Shown here: positions 2,543-54,424 of the stretch, piece after piece
Position numbering within the stretch: position 1 is the stretch's first letter
Layout of the letters: every line of letters starts with the position of its first letter
DNA from: Dehalococcoidia bacterium
Lineage (GTDB): Bacteria; Chloroflexota; Dehalococcoidia; Lucifugimonadales; UBA3495
DNA length: 64,000 nucleotides
Direction: 5' to 3'
Assembly: GCA_963665735.1 (NCBI GenBank)
Contig: OY762444.1
Span: 3,334,673 to 3,398,672 of the forward strand
Notes under the pieces: generated by a model
What the model was told of the DNA's origin: nothing
Seen by the model: the letters and a program-made list of their open reading frames with translations, nothing else
Databases searched by the model: none
Translations under genes and position numbers: made by a program

Positions 2543-3253
2543 CTAATTGGTGGTTTCCGATGTCTCCGGGGCGGAGCGGGTCATTGCGTCGGCGGCTGCG
2601 GCCCGCTCGGCGTCGGCTTTTTTGCCGCCCTGCCCCCGGCCAACCACCACGTCGGCGACCAGGGCTTCGACGGTAAAGACCGGGTTGTGGTCCGGGCCGG
2701 ACTTGTCCACCACCCGGTAGCTGGGGGCCGGCTTGCCCTGGGCTTGCAGGTATTCCTGGAATCGGGATTTGGGGTCTTTGGGCGGCACGCCGGAAAGACA
2801 GGATTGTTCCAGAGCGTTGCCCAAGGTATTTTTGACCAGGGTTCGGGCTTGGTCATAACCCTGGTCCAGGTAGGTCGCCGCGGTCAAAGCCTCAAAGGCC
2901 GCCGCCAGTATGGAATCCCGGTTTCTCCCGCCGGAAGTTTCCTCACCCTTGCCCAGCAACAGGTGTCGGCCCAGTTCCAGCCCCCGCGCCGCTTGGGACA
3001 GGCTTTCCCGGCAGACCAGGGCGGCCCGGATTTTGGTAAGTTCCCCCTCGTCCAGGTGAGGCAAGCGGTGGTAGAGTTCGGTGGACACCACCAACTCCAG
3101 TACCGAGTCCCCCAGGAACTCCAGCCTTTCGTAAGACTCCGGGGATGCCCCGCCCTGTTCGTTGAGGAAAGAACGGTGAATCAGGGCTTGCCGGAGCAAG
3201 CCCTGATTGCGAAAGCGAAACCCGATGGTTGATTCCAGGTCGCTGCCGGACAA
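2543..3253 (-). CDS. rnc: Ribonuclease III
   Basis: Contains the RNase III signature ERLEFLGDSVLELVV and a C-terminal dsRBD (PKDPKSRFQEYLQAQG...FTVEALV). The long ORF to 3532 overlaps the upstream gene. I place the start at TTG 3253, which is 4 nt after a GAGG. Confidence 0.88.
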   Translation of the reverse strand: MSGSDLESTIGFRFRNQGLLRQALIHRSFLNEQGGASPESYERLEFLGDSVLELVVSTELYHRLPHLDEGELTKIRAALVCRESLSQAARGLELGRHLLLGKGEETSGGRNRDSILAAAFEALTAATYLDQGYDQARTLVKNTLGNALEQSCLSGVPPKDPKSRFQEYLQAQGKPAPSYRVVDKSGPDHNPVFTVEALVADVVVGRGQGGKKADAERAAAADAMTRSAPETSETTN

Positions 3254-3260
3254 GGAGCCT

Positions 3261-3893
3261 CTAAATGACCCCGTGGGGCCAGGGCGGTTGGGGCCGCTTG
3301 ACTTCGCCGACGTGGGGCAGCGTGGAAACCATCGTCGTAAGGTTGTCGTAGATGGCGGCGGCCTCTTCGTCCGGGGGAATGAACATCTTGATGAAGGCCG
3401 AACCGCCGCCGGGGAAGACGTAGGTGGGAACGCCGAAGGCCCCGTACTCTTCCACCGCCTTGGTGTGGCTTTCCCCGATGTCCTGGAGCAACTGGGGGTC
3501 GGCCAGGTCTTCGTAGAACTGGCCCAGGTCAATGCCGGCGTCGGTGGCCGCGTCCTTGATTACCTGGGGGTCGGCCAGGTCTTTCTTTTCCTCGTGGCGG
3601 GCCTTGAGCAAGCTCATAAAGAAGGATTCGAAGGCGTCCCTGCCCTGCCGCTTAGCGGCCAGACCGGCCTGGTGGGCCAGCAGGGTGGTATCCGAGCCGT
3701 CCAGGATACCGGGCTGCTCCCAGACCTTCCAGTCGTCGCCCTCTTTGCTGTTGATTTGGGCCAGCGAGAAGGGCTGCCAGTCCACTTCAATATCCTGGCC
3801 GGTGGTTTCCCTGACTTTCGACAGCCACACGGCTGCGTTGTAAACGAAGGGTCAACGAAAGTCGTAATAGGTGGTGAAGTTCGCCTCTGTCAT
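3261..3893 (-). CDS. DsbA-like (Rv2466c/mycoredoxin-2-like) thiol oxidoreductase with an in-frame TGA at 3852-3854; candidate selenoprotein (or N-terminally disrupted gene)
   Basis: The track ORF 3261..3830 lacks the thioredoxin-fold active site. Upstream and in frame lies GGAGG, then 7 nt, then ATG 3893, encoding MTEANFTTYYDFR-TGA-PFVYNAAVWLSKV. The TGA aligns with the first Cys of the family's D-x-x-C-P-W-C motif. Confidence 0.6.
3822..3835 (-). other. Short hairpin CAGCC-GUGU-GGCUG starting 17 nt 3' of the in-frame UGA (possible SECIS apical stem)
   Basis: The plus strand reads cagcc acac ggctg. An outer UUCG/CGAA pairing is also possible. This was judged by eye only, with no folding energy computed. 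Confidence 0.25.
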
Positions 3894-3936
3894 ACTGCGC
3901 CTCCTGCCGTTTGGTTGGCCGTTCCTGACTGTCTGA

Positions 3937-3965
3937 ATTGTAGCACACCCCCGGCGCAAGGCCAA
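3937..3965 (-). promoter_or_regulatory. Sigma70-like promoter TTGGCC-17 nt-TACAAT upstream of the DsbA-like gene
   Basis: Minus-strand sequence is TTGGCCttgcgccgggggtgtgcTACAAT. It lies about 45 nt upstream of ATG 3893. Confidence 0.4.
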
Positions 3966-4018
3966 TAAGGGCGTGGCCGTTGGCCCGGGTCATCCAATCC
4001 TCCCGACCCTGCCAAACG

Positions 4019-4573
4019 CTAGCCGCTTTGCCTTTGTCGCTGGAACAGTCCGTGAACCCTGCTCACTGCCGGGCTGCCCAACCTTTCCAGCACCAACTGA
4101 CAGATTCGCAGGCCGGGGGACAGCTTACATTCGTAAGGGCCGTTGTTCAGGATTTCCAGACGCAACTGCCCTTCAAAGGTGGCATGAACCGTTGGAGCGG
4201 TTTGGTGAATGGATATGCCCAACCTGGCGAATGAACTTCTCCCTTCTACTCGTCCCGAAAGATAATTGGGTAGCTTGATGTATTCCCTGGTATATGCCAG
4301 GACGAACTGGCGGGGCGCGAGGTCGAAGTTGTCCCCTTCTTCAAGCGTCGTTTCAATCCCAAAGGCATTGGCGATTTCCTCCACGTCCCCCACTTTCGCC
4401 AAGTCTATGGTAGTTGAGACGCCTGGGATGTCGAGGGTGTTGAATGTCGTGAATTTGTTGCTGAGCCGCAGGTCAACGGAAGAAGGGGTGACTTGTTCCC
4501 CATCTATTTCGGGAGTGAATGACAGCCTCCCACTTCGTATCTCCATCCAGATTTCGTGGTCGCTAAGTACCAT
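4019..4573 (-). CDS. dcd: dCTP deaminase (dUTPase fold)
   Basis: 184 aa reading MVLSDHEIWMEI...SVDLRLSNKF...GRSSFARLGISIH...LEILN, which is the typical Dcd layout. It lies in a lower-GC patch. Confidence 0.88.
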   Translation of the reverse strand: MVLSDHEIWMEIRSGRLSFTPEIDGEQVTPSSVDLRLSNKFTTFNTLDIPGVSTTIDLAKVGDVEEIANAFGIETTLEEGDNFDLAPRQFVLAYTREYIKLPNYLSGRVEGRSSFARLGISIHQTAPTVHATFEGQLRLEILNNGPYECKLSPGLRICQLVLERLGSPAVSRVHGLFQRQRQSG

Positions 4574-4940
4574 TTTCCAGTTCTTTCACCCAGTTGCGGA
4601 AGGTCAGTACGGTGTCTTTTTCCGCATTTGTCACCTGGATCCTGGGGCCGGAAGTAAGAGTCTCGGCGGGGATGTCAACCAGCACCCCATTCTCCACGTC
4701 TGCAATGATAAAGGCGTGCAGAAATTTGCCGTCAGGGATTACGTGCTGCTTGGGAACAAAGGACGTGAAATGCCCTTCGTGGTTCTCAAACTGCACGATA
4801 TACTCCCCGAACTGCGGCCATTCGTGGACTTTGAGGCAGTTCACCAGCACCGGCTCCGGGTCTTGTCTCCATTCGGGAATTTTAACCATCGCTAACTCAC
4901 CCCTAAACGATTGCTTGGCCGAAACGGGCCGGACTTTCAT
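4563..4940 (-). CDS. Hypothetical protein, overlaps the dcd start by 11 nt
   Basis: Open frame with no family I recognise. An internal ATG at 4889 (MVKIPEWRQ) is preceded by GGGGTGA and may be the real start. Confidence 0.45.
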   Translation of the reverse strand: MKVRPVSAKQSFRGELAMVKIPEWRQDPEPVLVNCLKVHEWPQFGEYIVQFENHEGHFTSFVPKQHVIPDGKFLHAFIIADVENGVLVDIPAETLTSGPRIQVTNAEKDTVLTFRNWVKELENGT

Positions 4941-51132: not shown

Positions 51133-51162
51133 TTGTTTTGCCCTATTCCCCAAGACTATAAT
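51133..51162 (+). promoter_or_regulatory. Promoter-like TTGTTT-18 nt-TATAAT upstream of ilvD
   Basis: Sequence is cTTGTTTtgccctattccccaagacTATAATtcggg. AGGAGG follows 43 nt downstream. Confidence 0.45.
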
Positions 51163-51216
51163 TCGGGCCATTCCCCGTACCAATTCCCCATCCAACCCAA
51201 GTCTAGGAGGCTTCCC

Positions 51217-52917
51217 GTGGCCACCATCAACCGAGACCGCTCCCGCCTTCTGCGCATGAAACACCGCAGCAGCGACATTACCGAGGGGCCGGAACGCGCC
51301 CCCGCCCGCGCCATGCTCCTGGCGATGGGACTGACTCAGGACGACCTGGATCAACCCTTCGTCGCCATCGCCAACCTGGCCAGCGACGTTACCCCCTGCA
51401 ACGTCCACCTGGGCCGCTTCGCCGCCGCCGCCAAGGAAGGCGTCCGCCAGTCCGACGGCACCCCCTTCGAGTTCGGCACCATCACCGTCAGCGACGGCAT
51501 TTCTATGGGAACCGAAGGCATGAAGGCGTCCCTGGTCAGCCGGGAAGTCATCGCCGACTCCATCGAAGTCGTCACCTTCGGCGAGCGCATGGACGGACTG
51601 ATAACCGTTGCCGGCTGCGACAAGAATATGCCCGGCTGCATGATGGCTATTGCTCGCCTCAACGTCCCCTCCATCTTCATTTACGGCGGCACCATCATGC
51701 CCGGAATCTTCCAGGGCCGCGACGTGAACATCCAGGACGTTTTCGAGGCCGTCGGCGCCTACGCCAAGGGCAATATGTCTCTGGAAGACCTGCGCGAACT
51801 GGAATGTAACGCCTGCCCCGGCGAGGGTTCCTGCGCCGGCCTTTTCACCGCCAACACCATGTCCACCGCCATTGAGGTGATGGGTATGTCCCTCCCCGGC
51901 GACGCCTCCATTCCCGCCGTTGACCCTACCAAGGTTGATGAGGCCCGACGCGCCGGCGTCGCCCTGATGCGGCTCTTGGCCGAGGACGTGCGCCCCCGGG
52001 ACATTATGACCCGCCAGGCTTTTGAGAACGCCATAACTACCGTGGTGGCGATGGGCGGCTCCACCAACGCCGTCCTGCACCTGCTGGCCATCGCCCGCGA
52101 AGCCAACGTCGAGTTGAAGCTGGACGACTTCGACCGCATCAGCCGCAGCACCCCCTACATCGCCGATATGCGCCCCGGCGGGCATTACGTTATGGCCGAC
52201 CTGCACCGCCACGGCGGGGTGGCCCTCATCGCCAACCGCCTCTTGCGGGCCGGACTGCTCCACGGCGACGCCATGACCATCACCGGCAAGACCCTGCGGG
52301 AAAACATGGACGCCATGACCATCATTGACGACCAGGACATCATCTATTCCGCCGACGCCCCTCGCAGTCCTACCGGCGGGCTGGCCATCCTCTACGGCAA
52401 CCTGGCCCCCGAAGGCGCCGTAATCAAGGTTGCCGGACACCAGGAAAAGGTCTATCAAGGCCCGGCCCGCGTTTTCGAGCAGGAAGAACCGGCCTTCCGC
52501 GCCATCCAGGAAGGCCAAATTAACGAAGGCGATATAGTCATCATCCGCTACGAAGGGCCGATAGGCGGCCCCGGTATGCGGGAAATGCTGGCGGTTACCG
52601 GCGCCCTCATCGGCCAGGGATTGGGCGACTCGGTGGCCCTGGTTACTGATGGCCGCTTTTCCGGCGCCAGCCACGGCCCGATGGTCGGCCACGTCGCCCC
52701 CGAAGCCGCCGCCGGCGGCCCCATAGGATTATTGAATGAAGGCGACATCGTAACCCTGGACATTCCCAACCGCCGCCTCGACGCCCAGGTCACCGAGGAA
52801 GAACTGGCCCGCCGCCGCGCCAACTGGCGACCGTTGGAACCCCGCTACACCACCGGCGTCTTCGCCAAGTACGCCAAGCTGGTATCCTCCGCCGCCGAAG
52901 GCGCCGTCACCCGCTAG
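51217..52917 (+). CDS. ilvD: Dihydroxy-acid dehydratase
   Basis: Contains [46 protein letters not shown] and [12 protein letters not shown] 51217 sits 7 nt after AGGAGG. ATG 51256 ([11 protein letters not shown]) matches homolog N-termini better. Confidence 0.92.
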
Positions 52918-52975
52918 AGTGTCGCCGCCGGACGGTTGGAATCCTCCCGCACCAACCTATCAGTTGAGGGAAACT

Positions 52976-53305
52976 ATGATGGTGTCCCAAGAAGAAAAAA
53001 CGGAAATGGCGCAGATGCTCAAGGATGCGCTGGTTGAGCGGTTTCAGGACGACTTCGTTTTTGACCCTATCTCCGTTGTGCAAAGGATTGACCATTACGG
53101 GGATCCCTACCTCCATGCGGCCATCGTTTTCGTCGGGAACCAGGAACTGCTGGACCCCGGTTTTACCGCCACCTTGGGAAAGGTAGTGACCTCGAAGTTG
53201 ACGGAGTTAGGCATACAAAACCCGATGGTCACTTCGTTCATTGACAAGCCTTCCTGGAACCGCCGGAAAAAGCTCCGCGATTATTACCTCCATGACACCA
53301 TTTAA
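52976..53305 (+). CDS. Hypothetical 109-aa protein, upstream partner of the HEPN gene
   Basis: GAGGGAA lies before ATG 52976. The protein starts MMVSQEEKTEMAQMLKDALVERFQDDFVFDPISVVQRIDHYGDPYLHAAIVFVG... It has no G-S/DxD nucleotidyltransferase signature. About 47-53% GC. Confidence 0.55.
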   Translation: MMVSQEEKTEMAQMLKDALVERFQDDFVFDPISVVQRIDHYGDPYLHAAIVFVGNQELLDPGFTATLGKVVTSKLTELGIQNPMVTSFIDKPSWNRRKKLRDYYLHDTI

Positions 53306-53768
53306 CTTCGTCGTTACCGCCCGGAGGCTGGCGGAGCAGCCCGGGCGGGGACGGCCTTTGGAAACCGACCTACGGCGGGCCATCAGCACGGCGTACTACG
53401 CGTTATTTCACTGTCTGGCACGGTCTTGCGCCGACCTGCTGGTGGGCGGCCCAGGCTCTGCCAGGGACTTGGCAGCCTGGACCCGGGTTTACCGGGCGTT
53501 GCAGCATGGAACCGTCCGACAACGGTGCAACAACCTTTCCAGGATGCAGGACTTTCCGGTTCAGATTCAGGACTTCGGCGGAGTTTTCATCCAAATGCAG
53601 CTTCAACGCCACGATGCAGACTATAACCCTGATGCGGAATTTACCCGGCAACAGGTCATAACGAACATCAACGAGGTGGAGAATGCGATAAACGGATTTG
53701 CCCGCGCTCCCGTTAAAGACCGCCGGGCCTTTGCCGTTTACGTCCTGATGGACAGCCGGCGGGCATGA
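53292..53768 (+). CDS. HEPN-domain protein (UPF0332-like)
   Basis: 158 aa containing DLRRAISTAYYALFHCLARSCADLLVG and QLQRHDADYNPDAEFTRQQVITNINEVENAINGF. These match the HEPN helix-1 (sRAYYA.FH) and R-x-x-a-D-Y helix-3 patterns. It overlaps the upstream gene by 14 nt. Confidence 0.65.
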   Translation: MTPFNFVVTARRLAEQPGRGRPLETDLRRAISTAYYALFHCLARSCADLLVGGPGSARDLAAWTRVYRALQHGTVRQRCNNLSRMQDFPVQIQDFGGVFIQMQLQRHDADYNPDAEFTRQQVITNINEVENAINGFARAPVKDRRAFAVYVLMDSRRA

Positions 53769-53794
53769 CCGGGTAGTGCGGCATCCCCAACGCC

Positions 53795-54424
53795 ATGCTT
53801 AACGTCGTCCTGCTTTCCGTCCACATCGCCGCCGGCACCATCGCCTTGTTGACCGCCGCCTTCGCCCTGTCCACCGCCAAGGGCGGCGCCAACCACGTCC
53901 GGGCCGGCCGGGTTTACGCCATGGCCATGACCGCCGTATTCATCACCGCCGTCCCCCTGGCTCTTCTGGGGGCCGACATTTTCCTGCTGTTCATCGCCTT
54001 CTTCAGTTTCTACATGGTCTTCGCCGGCTGGCGTTTCGCCCGCAACCGCCACGGACACCCTCGCGTGGCGGACTGGGCCGCCGTTGCAATAATGGCCCTG
54101 ACCGGCCTGGGAATGGAAGCCTTCGCCGTCATCCTGGCCCTCAATGGCGACGACCAATGGGTAACGCTGGTCATATTCGGGTTTATCGCCTTCGGGCTGG
54201 CCCTGGCCGACGCTATCTACTACCGGAACCTTCCCGCCAACTACGTCCGGCGCATTTCCCGGCACCTGACCAACATGATGGCCGGCACCATCGCCACCGT
54301 CACCGCCGTTTTGGTGGTCAACGTGGCAACCAACCCGGCGTGGATTGCCTGGATTCTGCCTACCGTGGTCATTACCCCGCTGATTGTCTGGTGGAACTTT
54401 CGGGTTGCCCGCCGGGGCCGGTAA
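53795..54424 (+). CDS. Polytopic membrane protein of unknown function
   Basis: 209 aa with about 5-6 TM helices. GC is typical of the core genome. Confidence 0.6.
   Translation: MLNVVLLSVHIAAGTIALLTAAFALSTAKGGANHVRAGRVYAMAMTAVFITAVPLALLGADIFLLFIAFFSFYMVFAGWRFARNRHGHPRVADWAAVAIMALTGLGMEAFAVILALNGDDQWVTLVIFGFIAFGLALADAIYYRNLPANYVRRISRHLTNMMAGTIATVTAVLVVNVATNPAWIAWILPTVVITPLIVWWNFRVARRGR

What the first reader, a model, noticed from the sequence alone, without database searches (positions are those of the whole stretch)
52976..53768. Lower-GC two-gene module: HEPN (UPF0332-like) protein with an upstream partner that is not a recognisable nucleotidyltransferase
Seen in sequence: two genes overlap by 14 nt (52976-53305 and 53292-53768). 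They lie directly after ilvD in a patch of about 47-53% GC, by hand count of two 60-nt lines, against about 65% in flanking genes. The second protein carries DLRRAISTAYYALFHCLARSCADLLVG and QLQRHDADYNPDAEFTRQQVITNINEVENAINGF. Established knowledge: these match the HEPN/UPF0332 helix-1 (sRAYYA.FH) and R-x-x-a-D-Y patterns. Such HEPN proteins normally sit next to a minimal nucleotidyltransferase (MNT) in toxin-antitoxin or defence pairs. Seen in sequence: the partner here is MMVSQEEKTEMAQMLKDALVERFQDDFVFDPISVVQRIDHYGDPYLHAAIVFVGNQELLDPGF... It has an MNT-like length and helix-then-strand feel, but no G-S...D-x-D catalytic signature. Inference: this is either a degenerate or inactive MNT, or a new antitoxin/sensor type for HEPN effectors.
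Basis: partly seen in the sequence, partly recalled or inferred. Interest (0 to 1): 0.62.

Follow-up and report, generated by a model that had tools for sequence, protein, structure and literature searches.

The report
HEPN gene pair, new non-enzyme partner
A small horizontally acquired two-gene cassette encodes a divergent HEPN (RNase-type) protein and an undescribed acidic partner that replaces the usual nucleotidyltransferase; the same pair recurs across many phyla and beside the replication genes of Rhizobium plasmids, so it is most likely an uncharacterised toxin-antitoxin-like module.

Summary
Two overlapping genes, A (52976-53305, 109 aa) and B (53292-53768, 158 aa), lie after ilvD in a lower-GC patch (57% against 63-64%). 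Six same-genus genomes have the empty site, so the pair is an insertion of about 850 bp.

B is a divergent class II / HEPN-T (PF05168, AF0298-like) HEPN protein. The window's own copy escapes Pfam. [quoted passage not shown]

A belongs to a large family (about 1,540 clusters at 50% identity) with no Pfam, NCBIfam, PADLOC, PHROG or PDB sequence match. It has no invariant residues and no GS...DxD motif. Its predicted topology is alpha-beta-beta-alpha-beta-alpha.

- A lies next to B in 100 of 102 copies: 91 upstream and 9 in swapped order.
- The two families co-diversify, and both are under purifying selection.
- A is acidic and B is basic.
- The pair is patchy and multi-copy. On Rhizobium conjugative plasmids it lies just downstream of repC or repABC.

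Best reading: a toxin-antitoxin-like module that works by direct binding, not AMPylation. No experiment supports this. Whether A descends from an MNT is unresolved. It is a new variant of a known kind.

The parts
52918..53794 (+). Inserted segment (about 850-880 bp) between the ilvD stop and the start of the 209-aa membrane-protein gene; lower GC (57.1%)
   Evidence: Six same-genus genomes have ilvD, a gap of about 58 nt, the membrane gene, then malic enzyme, with no A-B.
52964..52969 (+). GAGGGA ribosome-binding site of gene A, 6 nt before ATG 52976
   Evidence: Read directly from the sequence. No sigma-70-like promoter was found in 52600-54000, so read-through from ilvD is possible.
52976..53305 (+). 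Gene A: 109-aa acidic (pI 5.2) partner protein of an undescribed family; predicted alpha-beta-beta-alpha-beta-alpha; putative antitoxin or regulator
53292..53305 (+). 14-nt overlap of the A stop region with the B start (translational coupling); the same apparent overlap occurs in 51 of 80 pairs elsewhere
53292..53768 (+). Gene B: 158-aa basic (pI 9.8) divergent HEPN protein (class II / HEPN-T, AF0298-like); putative RNase toxin or effector
53373..53411 (+). B residues 28-40, RRAISTAYYALFH: the HEPN helix-2 motif (invariant R29, S32, Y35, Y36, F39, H40)
   Evidence: Alignment A2. It aligns to STAYYAMFH of AF0298.
53505..53507 (+). B His72: invariant histidine in the insert between HEPN helices 2 and 3; candidate alternative catalytic histidine
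   Evidence: Anantharaman et al. 2013 (PMC3710099) describe this alternative His for AF0298-like HEPN-T proteins.
53607..53624 (+). B residues 106-111, R-H-D-A-D-Y, at the C-terminal end of helix 3: the HEPN R-motif with D/Y in place of the canonical His (R106, D110 and Y111 invariant; H107 not)

Best explanation
The segment is a horizontally acquired, self-contained two-gene toxin-antitoxin-like module.

Gene B encodes a divergent class II (PF05168, AF0298-like) HEPN protein. Its invariant Arg106/Asp110/Tyr111 and His72/His40 constellation most likely forms an RNA-cleaving or RNA-binding active site. This makes B the toxic or effector component.

Gene A is translated first and is coupled to B by a 14-nt overlap. 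It encodes an acidic, fast-evolving, non-catalytic alpha/beta protein. A most likely neutralises B by direct protein-protein binding (type II-like), possibly with its variable C-terminal helix. AMPylation, as used by MNT antitoxins in type VII systems, is unlikely here.

Shown here:
- gene structure and the insertion;
- membership of B in the HEPN superfamily;
- absence of NTase motifs in A;
- near-obligate adjacency in either gene order, and co-diversification;
- purifying selection and complementary charge;
- patchy, multi-copy distribution and a location in plasmid maintenance regions.

Inferred only: toxicity of B, RNase activity, physical A-B binding, and which partner is the antidote.
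For: - B is a HEPN protein: the profile hits PDB 2hsb at E 2e-5 and 9xbd at E 2e-3. 21 of 39 members hit PF05168, best E 5e-6. The AF2 model has pLDDT 91.8, is all-helical and has 2hsb as top Foldseek hit at prob 0.99. B also hits phrog_5176 at E 1e-7.
- A dense set of invariant polar residues in B suggests an enzyme.
- A has no invariant or 90%-conserved column in 52 sequences. It has no family or PDB sequence hit. hhalign against MNT gives 0.16%.
- Linkage: 80 of 88 upstream ORFs are A homologues. By HMM scan, 91 of 102 B copies have A upstream and 9 more have A immediately downstream. Swapped gene order with retained adjacency is typical of TA pairs.
- Orphan A copies exist (L039, L051, L089), as do decayed B copies (L086, G152).
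- The distance matrices of A and B correlate: r 0.63, with 0 of 2000 permutations reaching it. A evolves faster, with mean distance 0.71 against 0.50.
- dN/dS is 0.12-0.28.
- Median pI is 4.84 for A and 9.79 for B.
- Mobility: empty site in 6 congeners. Presence in 1 of 151 genomes sampled from the class and 6 of 31 relatives, with 1-11 copies. Found in at least 8 phyla.
- 30 plasmids carry B, 27 of them Rhizobium and 20 conjugative. On the two plasmids whose annotation could be inspected the pair lies a few kb downstream of repC (pRL23b2), and on pRltCC275eB between repABC and a ParB gene.
Against: - No experiment exists for this family or for any class II HEPN. Yao et al. 2020 (PMC7641770) state that class II modules have not been biochemically validated as TA systems.
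- B lacks the canonical Rx4-6H histidine.
- A has no recognisable DNA-binding domain, unlike most type II antitoxins. No operator-like palindrome or promoter was found upstream.
- Foldseek support for B as HEPN is weak in TM-score (0.38-0.46), and the window's own B does not reach any Pfam threshold.
Confidence: 0.55

Rival explanations
1. A is an evolutionarily degenerate, catalytically dead MNT (a pseudo-nucleotidyltransferase). It kept only the HEPN-binding role. The module would then be a class II HEPN/MNT system that switched from AMPylation to sequestration. This concerns the origin of A and is compatible with the binding mechanism above.
For: - A occupies the position, orientation and size of an MNT relative to a PF05168-type HEPN.
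- Its predicted element order, helix, strand, loop, strand, helix, strand, helix, is collinear with the pol-beta-like MNT. That fold has N-terminal helices, antiparallel beta1 and beta2 joined by the G-loop, and a C-terminal helix that plugs the HEPN cleft (PMC11586414). It is also collinear with MNT domains of the same genome.
- Among the BFVD Foldseek matches, an NTase-domain protein of Ralstonia phage RP12 has one of the highest TM-scores (TMq 0.56, prob 0.96, E 0.07).
- The PDB list was cut at E 0.054, so the absence of MNTs from its top 50 is not informative.
Against: - hhalign of the A profile against MNT domains gives 0.16% probability with no aligned stretch. The same method does link B to a canonical HEPN.
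- No consistent NTase Pfam hit appears in 52 members; one member hits DUF294 at E 0.034.
- There is no GS...DxD in the structurally equivalent place. The 19 pattern matches in 271 members fall on a different element.
- All fold matches are weak (E above 0.004, TM about 0.5). They include unrelated folds: the ANL C-terminal domain, the KH-II domain of ribosomal protein S3, and PrgK ring-building motifs.
Confidence: 0.25
2. The pair is an abortive-infection or phage-defence module, not a plasmid-addiction or selfish TA. A would be a sensor or labile inhibitor. Its loss or modification during phage infection would release the HEPN effector, as RnlB does for RnlA.
For: - HEPN effectors are common in defence systems (PMC3710099).
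- A few B members weakly match the PADLOC models HEPN_IX and PDC-M05B, and B matches phrog_5176.
- Some copies sit beside restriction-modification genes: an MmeI-like gene in L003 and a helicase-methylase in L051.
- A evolves fast, as sensors and antitoxins do.
- Copy number varies strongly between close relatives.
Against: - Here and in several other genomes the pair sits among housekeeping genes (ilvD and malic enzyme; secDF and def), not in a defence island.
- There is no PADLOC hit for the window's own proteins.
- The pair is almost absent from viral contigs.
- The location downstream of repC/repABC on plasmids fits addiction better.
Confidence: 0.3
3. B is a non-toxic RNA- or nucleotide-binding HEPN protein, and the A-B pair has a regulatory or housekeeping role. 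It would be neither a toxin-antitoxin nor a defence system.
For: - The canonical catalytic His of Rx4-6H is absent.
- Class II HEPNs have never been shown to be toxic (PMC7641770).
- No promoter or operator was found; the pair may simply be co-transcribed with ilvD.
Against: - The pair is very patchy: 1 of 151 genomes in the class sample and absent from 5 of 7 congeners.
- It occurs in up to 11 copies, spreads across phyla and is carried on plasmids. These features do not fit a housekeeping function.
- Orphan A copies and decayed B copies fit a toxin-antidote asymmetry.
- The invariant R/H/D/Y set in B argues for catalysis.
Confidence: 0.12
4. A is an active but unrecognisably divergent nucleotidyltransferase that AMPylates Tyr111 of B, making this a cryptic type VII system.
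For: - Tyr111 is invariant and lies where the acceptor tyrosine lies in HepT-type toxins (PMC7641770).
- A is in the MNT position.
Against: - A has no invariant residue at all.
- The acidic residues of the consensus 'FDGD' are replaced in the window's own protein by 'FVGNQ'.
- A has no GS motif and no profile similarity to MNTs.
Confidence: 0.03

Closest known systems
Class II HEPN/MNT modules (PF05168 HEPN plus PF01909 MNT; AF0298/UPF0332-type HEPN-T, PDB 2hsb)
   Same: - B shares the helix-2 'sxAYYAxFH' motif and an Arg followed by D-Y at the end of helix 3, in place of Rx4-6H.
- B has a conserved His in the helix 2-3 insert.
- Both are small two-gene operons with the partner gene first, and both spread by horizontal transfer.
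   Different: - The partner lacks GSx10DxD and any detectable NTase similarity.
- B is about 30 aa longer, with an extra N-terminal helix, a larger helix 2-3 insert and a conserved C-terminal 'DRRAFAVYVL' helix.
- B falls below the Pfam threshold.
Type VII HepT/MntA (class I HEPN/MNT; Shewanella SO_3166/SO_3165, Aphanizomenon, Legionella)
   Same: - A HEPN-fold putative RNase is paired with a small upstream neutraliser.
- A conserved tyrosine lies next to the Arg motif.
- A C-terminal helix of the partner could plug the HEPN cleft.
   Different: - HepT belongs to DUF86/PF01934 and has RX4HXY.
- Neutralisation there is enzymatic, by oligoAMPylation.
- A has no catalytic residues.
RnlA-RnlB / LsoA-LsoB (type II HEPN toxin-antitoxin and anti-phage systems)
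   Same: A HEPN toxin is held inactive by direct binding of a small, unrelated, non-enzymatic protein encoded next to it. This is the proposed working mode here.
   Different: - RnlA is a large three-domain protein with a canonical HEPN active site.
- RnlB is encoded downstream and is unrelated to A.
- No sequence or fold match to either was found here.

Membership tests
HEPN superfamily, HEPN-T / PF05168 (AF0298-like, UPF0332) | Significant profile similarity to PF05168 or to solved HEPN-T proteins | tested here: met
   The family profile hits 2hsb at E 2e-5 and 9xbd at E 2e-3. 21 of 39 members hit PF05168, best E 5e-6. The window's own protein alone gives no Pfam hit at E up to 10.
HEPN superfamily, HEPN-T / PF05168 (AF0298-like, UPF0332) | All-alpha up-down helical bundle fold | tested here: inconclusive
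   The AF2 model (pLDDT 91.8) is all-helical. The top Foldseek PDB hit is 2hsb (prob 0.99), and further HEPN entries follow (8xeh, 4nqf, 7bxo, 6m6w, 1wty, 8yuf). All have E of 0.07 or more and TM 0.23-0.54.
HEPN superfamily, HEPN-T / PF05168 (AF0298-like, UPF0332) | Conserved Arg at the C-terminal end of helix 3 (the R of Rx4-6H) | tested here: met
   R106 is invariant and lies at the end of helix 90-111.
HEPN superfamily, HEPN-T / PF05168 (AF0298-like, UPF0332) | His of Rx4-6H, or in the AF0298-like subgroup an alternative conserved His in the helix 2-3 insert | tested here: met
   The canonical His is absent: D110 and Y111 are invariant instead, and H107 varies. His72 in the insert is invariant. 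This is the AF0298-like pattern described in PMC3710099. Spatial proximity of H72 and R106 was not checked because no coordinates were available.
Class II HEPN/MNT toxin-antitoxin module | Adjacent minimal nucleotidyltransferase with GSx10DxD (PF01909) | tested here: not met
   A has no PF01909 hit, no such motif and 0.16% hhalign probability against MNT domains.
Type VII TA (HepT/MntA) | RX4HXY motif in the toxin and AMPylation by the antitoxin | tested here: not met
   B has R-H-x-A-D-Y and no Rx4H. The partner has no catalytic residues. AMPylation itself cannot be tested with these tools.
Type II toxin-antitoxin system (generic) | Two small co-directional, overlapping genes that are conserved as a pair and mobile | tested here: met
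   The genes overlap by 14 nt. 100 of 102 B copies have an adjacent A. The pair is an insertion relative to congeners. It is carried on plasmids, a few kb downstream of repC/repABC on the two inspected.
Type II toxin-antitoxin system (generic) | Toxicity of one product, neutralised by direct binding of the other | not testable with these tools
   Only indirect evidence exists: an acidic A and a basic B, co-diversification, and orphan A and decayed B copies.
Type II toxin-antitoxin system (generic) | Antitoxin with a DNA-binding domain that autoregulates the operon | tested here: not met
   No HTH, RHH or AbrB family hit was found in A or in its longer relatives. No operator-like palindrome or promoter was found upstream.

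The most novel reading that the evidence does not exclude
Family A would be a previously unrecognised class of HEPN-neutralising or HEPN-sensing protein. It would be either a new fold family or a pseudo-nucleotidyltransferase that has lost all catalytic residues. It would control a class II HEPN effector by binding alone. If so, the A-B pair is an unnamed, widespread toxin-antitoxin or abortive-infection system (about 1,500 clusters at 50% identity, at least 8 phyla, Rhizobium conjugative plasmids). It would also give the first experimental handle on what class II HEPN proteins do.
Probability: 0.35. Interest if true: 0.65.

Novelty: new variant of a known kind. Interest (0 to 1): 0.5.

Why it matters
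Class II (PF05168) HEPN proteins are among the most abundant predicted toxins in prokaryotes. As of Yao et al. 2020 (PMC7641770) none had been shown to be toxic or to have a defined activity.

This sub-family has replaced the nucleotidyltransferase, or let it decay, with a non-catalytic partner. That separates the binding question from the AMPylation question.

The pair also occurs on plasmids of cultivable, non-pathogenic Rhizobium strains. Toxicity, rescue, plasmid-stability and phage-challenge tests are therefore straightforward.

Family A would add a new antitoxin or regulator family to annotation resources. At present both genes are called 'hypothetical protein'.

Tried and rejected
- Single-sequence scans of both proteins against Pfam, NCBIfam and PADLOC found nothing. 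Only scans of whole family alignments exposed the HEPN link.
- A word-based homologue search with A alone found one relative. The family became visible only by reading the ORFs next to B homologues and by profile searches.
- A PDB sequence search with the A profile gave only chance hits, eIF4G and eL39, at E above 0.6.
- Foldseek of the A model against PDB and BFVD gave no match below E 0.004. The hits are a mix of unrelated alpha/beta sandwiches, so no fold assignment was made.
- Longer A-family proteins were scanned for a fused DNA-binding or other informative domain. None was found.
- A search for GS...DxD across 271 family members gave only off-register pattern matches.
- Promoter, terminator, operator and target-site-duplication searches around the insertion gave nothing convincing. 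A 24-nt 75% direct repeat (52829/52931) is probably chance.
- A scan of viral contigs found one partial match only.
- Literature searches for the PDB code 9xbd, for the Rhizobium protein accessions and for HEPN plus repABC gave nothing relevant.
Full report
**1. Observation**

The window has two co-directional ORFs directly after ilvD (51133-52917).
- Gene A runs from ATG 52976 to TAA 53305 (109 aa). A GAGGGA site lies 6 nt upstream of its start.
- Gene B runs from ATG 53292 to TGA 53768 (158 aa).
- The two genes overlap by 14 nt.

Base composition:
- GC is 51.2% for A, 59.3% for B and 57.1% for the whole segment 52918-53794.
- ilvD has 64.4% and the downstream 209-aa membrane-protein gene 63.5%.
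- GC3 is 0.68 against 0.82-0.84.
- The segment is in the lowest 7.4% of equal-length windows.

**2. The pair is an insertion**

Six same-genus genomes (G151-G155, G157) carry ilvD, a gap of about 58 nt, the membrane gene, then malic enzyme, with nothing in between. Aligning filled and empty sites places both junctions in that short spacer, with no target duplication. The closest relative with the pair (L001, 74-79% protein identity) has it at the same site. L003 has it next to an ilvD fragment and malic enzyme.

Against these orthologues dN/dS is 0.23-0.25 for A and 0.12-0.28 for B. Both genes are therefore maintained by selection.

**3. Gene B**

Alone, B hits nothing in Pfam, NCBIfam or PADLOC. 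It has at least 973 homologue clusters at 90% identity, none with a precomputed Pfam domain. JGI calls a few of them 'UPF0332 family'.

Evidence from an alignment of 39 family members (A2, mean column identity 57%):
- The profile hits PDB 2hsb (AF0298, UPF0332) at E 2e-5 and 9xbd (a HEPN protein) at E 2e-3. The helix-2 motif (sTAYYAxFH) and the R...DY region both align.
- 21 of 39 members hit PF05168 individually, best E 5e-6.
- B matches phrog_5176 at E 1e-7. Three members match the PADLOC model HEPN_IX weakly.
- hhalign links the B profile to a canonical HEPN of the same genome through the 'RxxADYDP' region (P 1.7e-4).
- The AF2 model (pLDDT 91.8) is all-helical. 2hsb is its best PDB match (prob 0.99), but TM-scores are low at 0.38-0.46. 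This is expected given an extra N-terminal helix, a longer helix 2-3 insert and an extra C-terminal helix.

Invariant residues are R29, S32, Y35, Y36, F39, H40, W63, R68, H72, R106, D110 and Y111.

R106-H-x-A-D110-Y111 sits at the end of helix 3, where Rx4-6H sits in canonical HEPN RNases. The canonical His is missing. His72 in the helix 2-3 insert is invariant. This is the pattern Anantharaman et al. 2013 describe for AF0298-like HEPN-T proteins, with D in place of H and an alternative His from the insert (PMC3710099).

Yao et al. 2020 call PF05168 plus MNT pairs 'class II'. They note a conserved tyrosine, no RX4H, and no biochemical validation (PMC7641770). B is therefore a divergent class II-type HEPN. 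Its toxicity is an inference, not a demonstrated property of the family.

**4. Gene A**

- A has no hit in Pfam, NCBIfam, PADLOC or PHROGs, either alone or across 52 aligned family members. Only scattered single-member chance hits appear.
- A has no PDB sequence hit.
- The family is large. A profile search of 1.84 billion representatives gives 1,540 clusters at E up to 1e-3 and 690 at E up to 1e-10. These include tandem A-A fusions of 209-251 aa.
- Sources give no name beyond 'hypothetical protein'.
- The alignment has no invariant column and none conserved at 90% (mean identity 29%). The consensus 'FDGD' reads 'FVGNQ' in the window's own protein.
- The AF2 model is confident (pLDDT 91.5): helix 5-26, strands 28-38 and 44-53 forming a hairpin, helix 61-77, strand 84-90, helix 91-107.
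- Foldseek finds nothing below E 0.004. The best PDB hits are the ANL-ligase C-terminal domain, the KH-II domain of ribosomal protein S3 and PrgK/EscJ ring-building motifs, all at TM about 0.45-0.5.
- hhalign of the A profile against eight MNT domains of the same genome (all with FGSxARGD...SDID) gives 0.16% probability.

A is therefore not a functional nucleotidyltransferase.

Whether A descends from an MNT stays open:
- Its element order is collinear with the pol-beta-like MNT. That fold has N-terminal helices, a beta1/G-loop/beta2 hairpin, and a C-terminal helix that in some MNTs plugs the HEPN cleft (PMC11586414).
- Among the BFVD matches, an NTase-domain protein of Ralstonia phage RP12 has one of the highest TM-scores (TMq 0.56, E 0.07).
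- The PDB list was truncated at E 0.054, so the absence of MNTs from it means little.

**5. Linkage of A and B**

- In 80 genome loci fetched through B, 80 of 88 upstream ORFs are A homologues. The loci come from Dehalococcoidia, Alpha- and Gammaproteobacteria, Rhodothermales, Spirochaetia, Latescibacterota, Gemmatimonadota and Acidobacteriota.
- In 9 more copies A lies about 20 nt downstream of B (gene order swapped, mostly Gammaproteobacteria). One copy is at a contig edge, and one (L080) has no A.
- The apparent 14-nt overlap recurs in 51 of 80 pairs, and a 4-nt overlap in 7.
- The pairwise distance matrices of A and B correlate (r 0.63; 0 of 2000 permutations reach it). A diverges faster, at 0.71 against 0.50.
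- A is acidic (median pI 4.84; 46 of 52 below 6). B is basic (median 9.79; 36 of 39 above 8.5).
- Orphan A copies exist: a third A after an A-B pair in two Rhodothermales loci, and an A beside bamE in L089.
- Decayed B copies also exist: a 58-aa remnant in L086, and in-frame TAA codons in 7 of 11 copies in G152.
- This asymmetry, in which the antidote outlives the toxin, is what TA biology predicts.

**6. Distribution and mobility**

- The window's genome has one copy of each gene.
- In an even sample of 151 genomes of the class, only this genome has A.
- Among 31 near relatives, 6 have B, in 1 to 11 copies.
- In G152 the repeated unit is only the cassette of about 1.1-1.2 kb, at 87-93% identity.
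- B homologues occur on 30 plasmids: 27 Rhizobium, 20 predicted conjugative.
- On pRL23b2 the pair lies about 3 kb from repC. It consists of WP_017958513, which hhalign assigns to family A at 97% probability, and WP_128409084.
- On pRltCC275eB it lies between repABC and a ParB-family gene. That is the maintenance region, where addiction modules usually sit. A third plasmid looked at (H2, pRspNXC24c) has no annotation in the record, so only these two neighbourhoods were seen.
- Viral contigs almost lack the pair.

**7. Interpretation**

The best-supported reading is a mobile, two-gene toxin-antitoxin-like module.
- B is the effector: a HEPN protein, probably an RNase that uses R106 with H72 and/or H40. 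Y111 and D110 are essential for reasons not yet known.
- A is the neutraliser and acts by direct binding. It has no catalytic residues, it is acidic against a basic partner, and it co-evolves with B and faster than B. It is made first and is translationally coupled to B.
- The variable, partly basic C-terminal helix of A is a candidate plug for the HEPN cleft, by analogy with the alpha4 helix of MntA. This is inference.

Rival readings, which are not all mutually exclusive:
- A is a dead MNT. This concerns origin and is compatible with the mechanism (0.25).
- The module is a defence or abortive-infection system rather than an addiction module (0.3).
- B is non-toxic and the pair is regulatory (0.12).
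- A is a cryptic active AMPylase (0.03).

Points against the main reading:
- No experiment exists on any class II HEPN.
- A has no DNA-binding domain, and no operator or promoter was found.
- No model of the A-B complex could be made.

**8. Comparison with known systems**

- The closest family for B is the AF0298-type HEPN-T / class II HEPN. Membership of the HEPN superfamily is supported at family-profile level.
- Functionally the module would work like RnlA-RnlB, where a HEPN toxin is held by a small unrelated binding protein. It has no homology to either RnlA or RnlB.
- Earlier notes of this scan report other HEPN genes with non-MNT partners. One of them (e1-2214590) is from Chloroflexota with a beta-beta-alpha-beta partner. 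Another window (e1-4701384) shares short words with both A and B.
- I treated these notes as leads and did not test them.

**9. Verdict**

This is a new variant of a known kind: a HEPN toxin-antitoxin-like pair with an undescribed, non-enzymatic partner family. Interest is moderate, at 0.5.

The pair is widespread, unnamed and easy to test using Rhizobium plasmid homologues in laboratory strains. It remains conceptually within the known HEPN conflict-system theme.

Noticed in passing
G152 (same genus), contig C2 3.216-3.363 Mb; loci L112, L114, L116: Eleven copies of the A-B cassette lie within about 150 kb. They are 87-93% identical over only about 1.1-1.2 kb, so the cassette itself is the repeat unit. 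Seven carry the same kind of in-frame TAA in B. How such a bare cassette multiplies is unexplained.
   Followed up: partly
Own genome G000:C1, e.g. 2818699-2820192, 1058095-1058847, 3683151-3683873, 159143-159841: The genome has 13 PF05168 HEPN matches over the Pfam cut-off and 9 PF01909 MNT matches. Several are fused MNT-HEPN ORFs of 265-304 aa, including two tandem paralogues. The non-MNT pair therefore coexists with many canonical class II modules.
   Followed up: partly
L057, L061, L062 (three copies), L066, L068, L076, L088: In these loci, mostly GC-rich Gammaproteobacteria MAGs, the gene order is reversed, with B first and A about 20 nt downstream. L062 carries three such pairs within 4 kb.
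   Followed up: partly
P0243-P0246, P0281, P0336 (proteins from the representative library): Tandem A-A fusion proteins of 209-251 aa exist. Other A-family members carry N-terminal extensions of about 120 aa with no Pfam match. Their genomic partners could not be looked up.
   Followed up: no
L003:347-643 and 2834-4888; L051:3395-6655: In L003 only a 98-aa C-terminal fragment of ilvD precedes the pair, and an MmeI-like restriction-modification gene follows malic enzyme. In L051 an A-B-A array sits beside a 1086-aa helicase/methylase gene. This suggests occasional linkage to restriction-modification genes.
   Followed up: no
window 52829-52852 and 52931-52954: A 24-nt imperfect direct repeat (75% identity) brackets the ilvD stop codon at the left junction of the insertion. 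It may be chance or a trace of the insertion event.
   Followed up: partly
Record titles of loci L008, L019, L031, L044, L046, L047, L051, L072 and others: Many carriers are MAGs from phyla typical of marine host-associated (sponge-type) communities: Dehalococcoidia, Latescibacterota, Gemmatimonadota, Rhodothermales, Spirochaetia and Acidobacteriota. Their isolate names suggest such projects. A habitat-linked spread across phyla is possible but was not verified.
   Followed up: no
L089:3001-3766: An orphan A-family gene overlaps by 8 nt the start of a genuine bamE lipoprotein gene. No B gene is nearby.
   Followed up: partly
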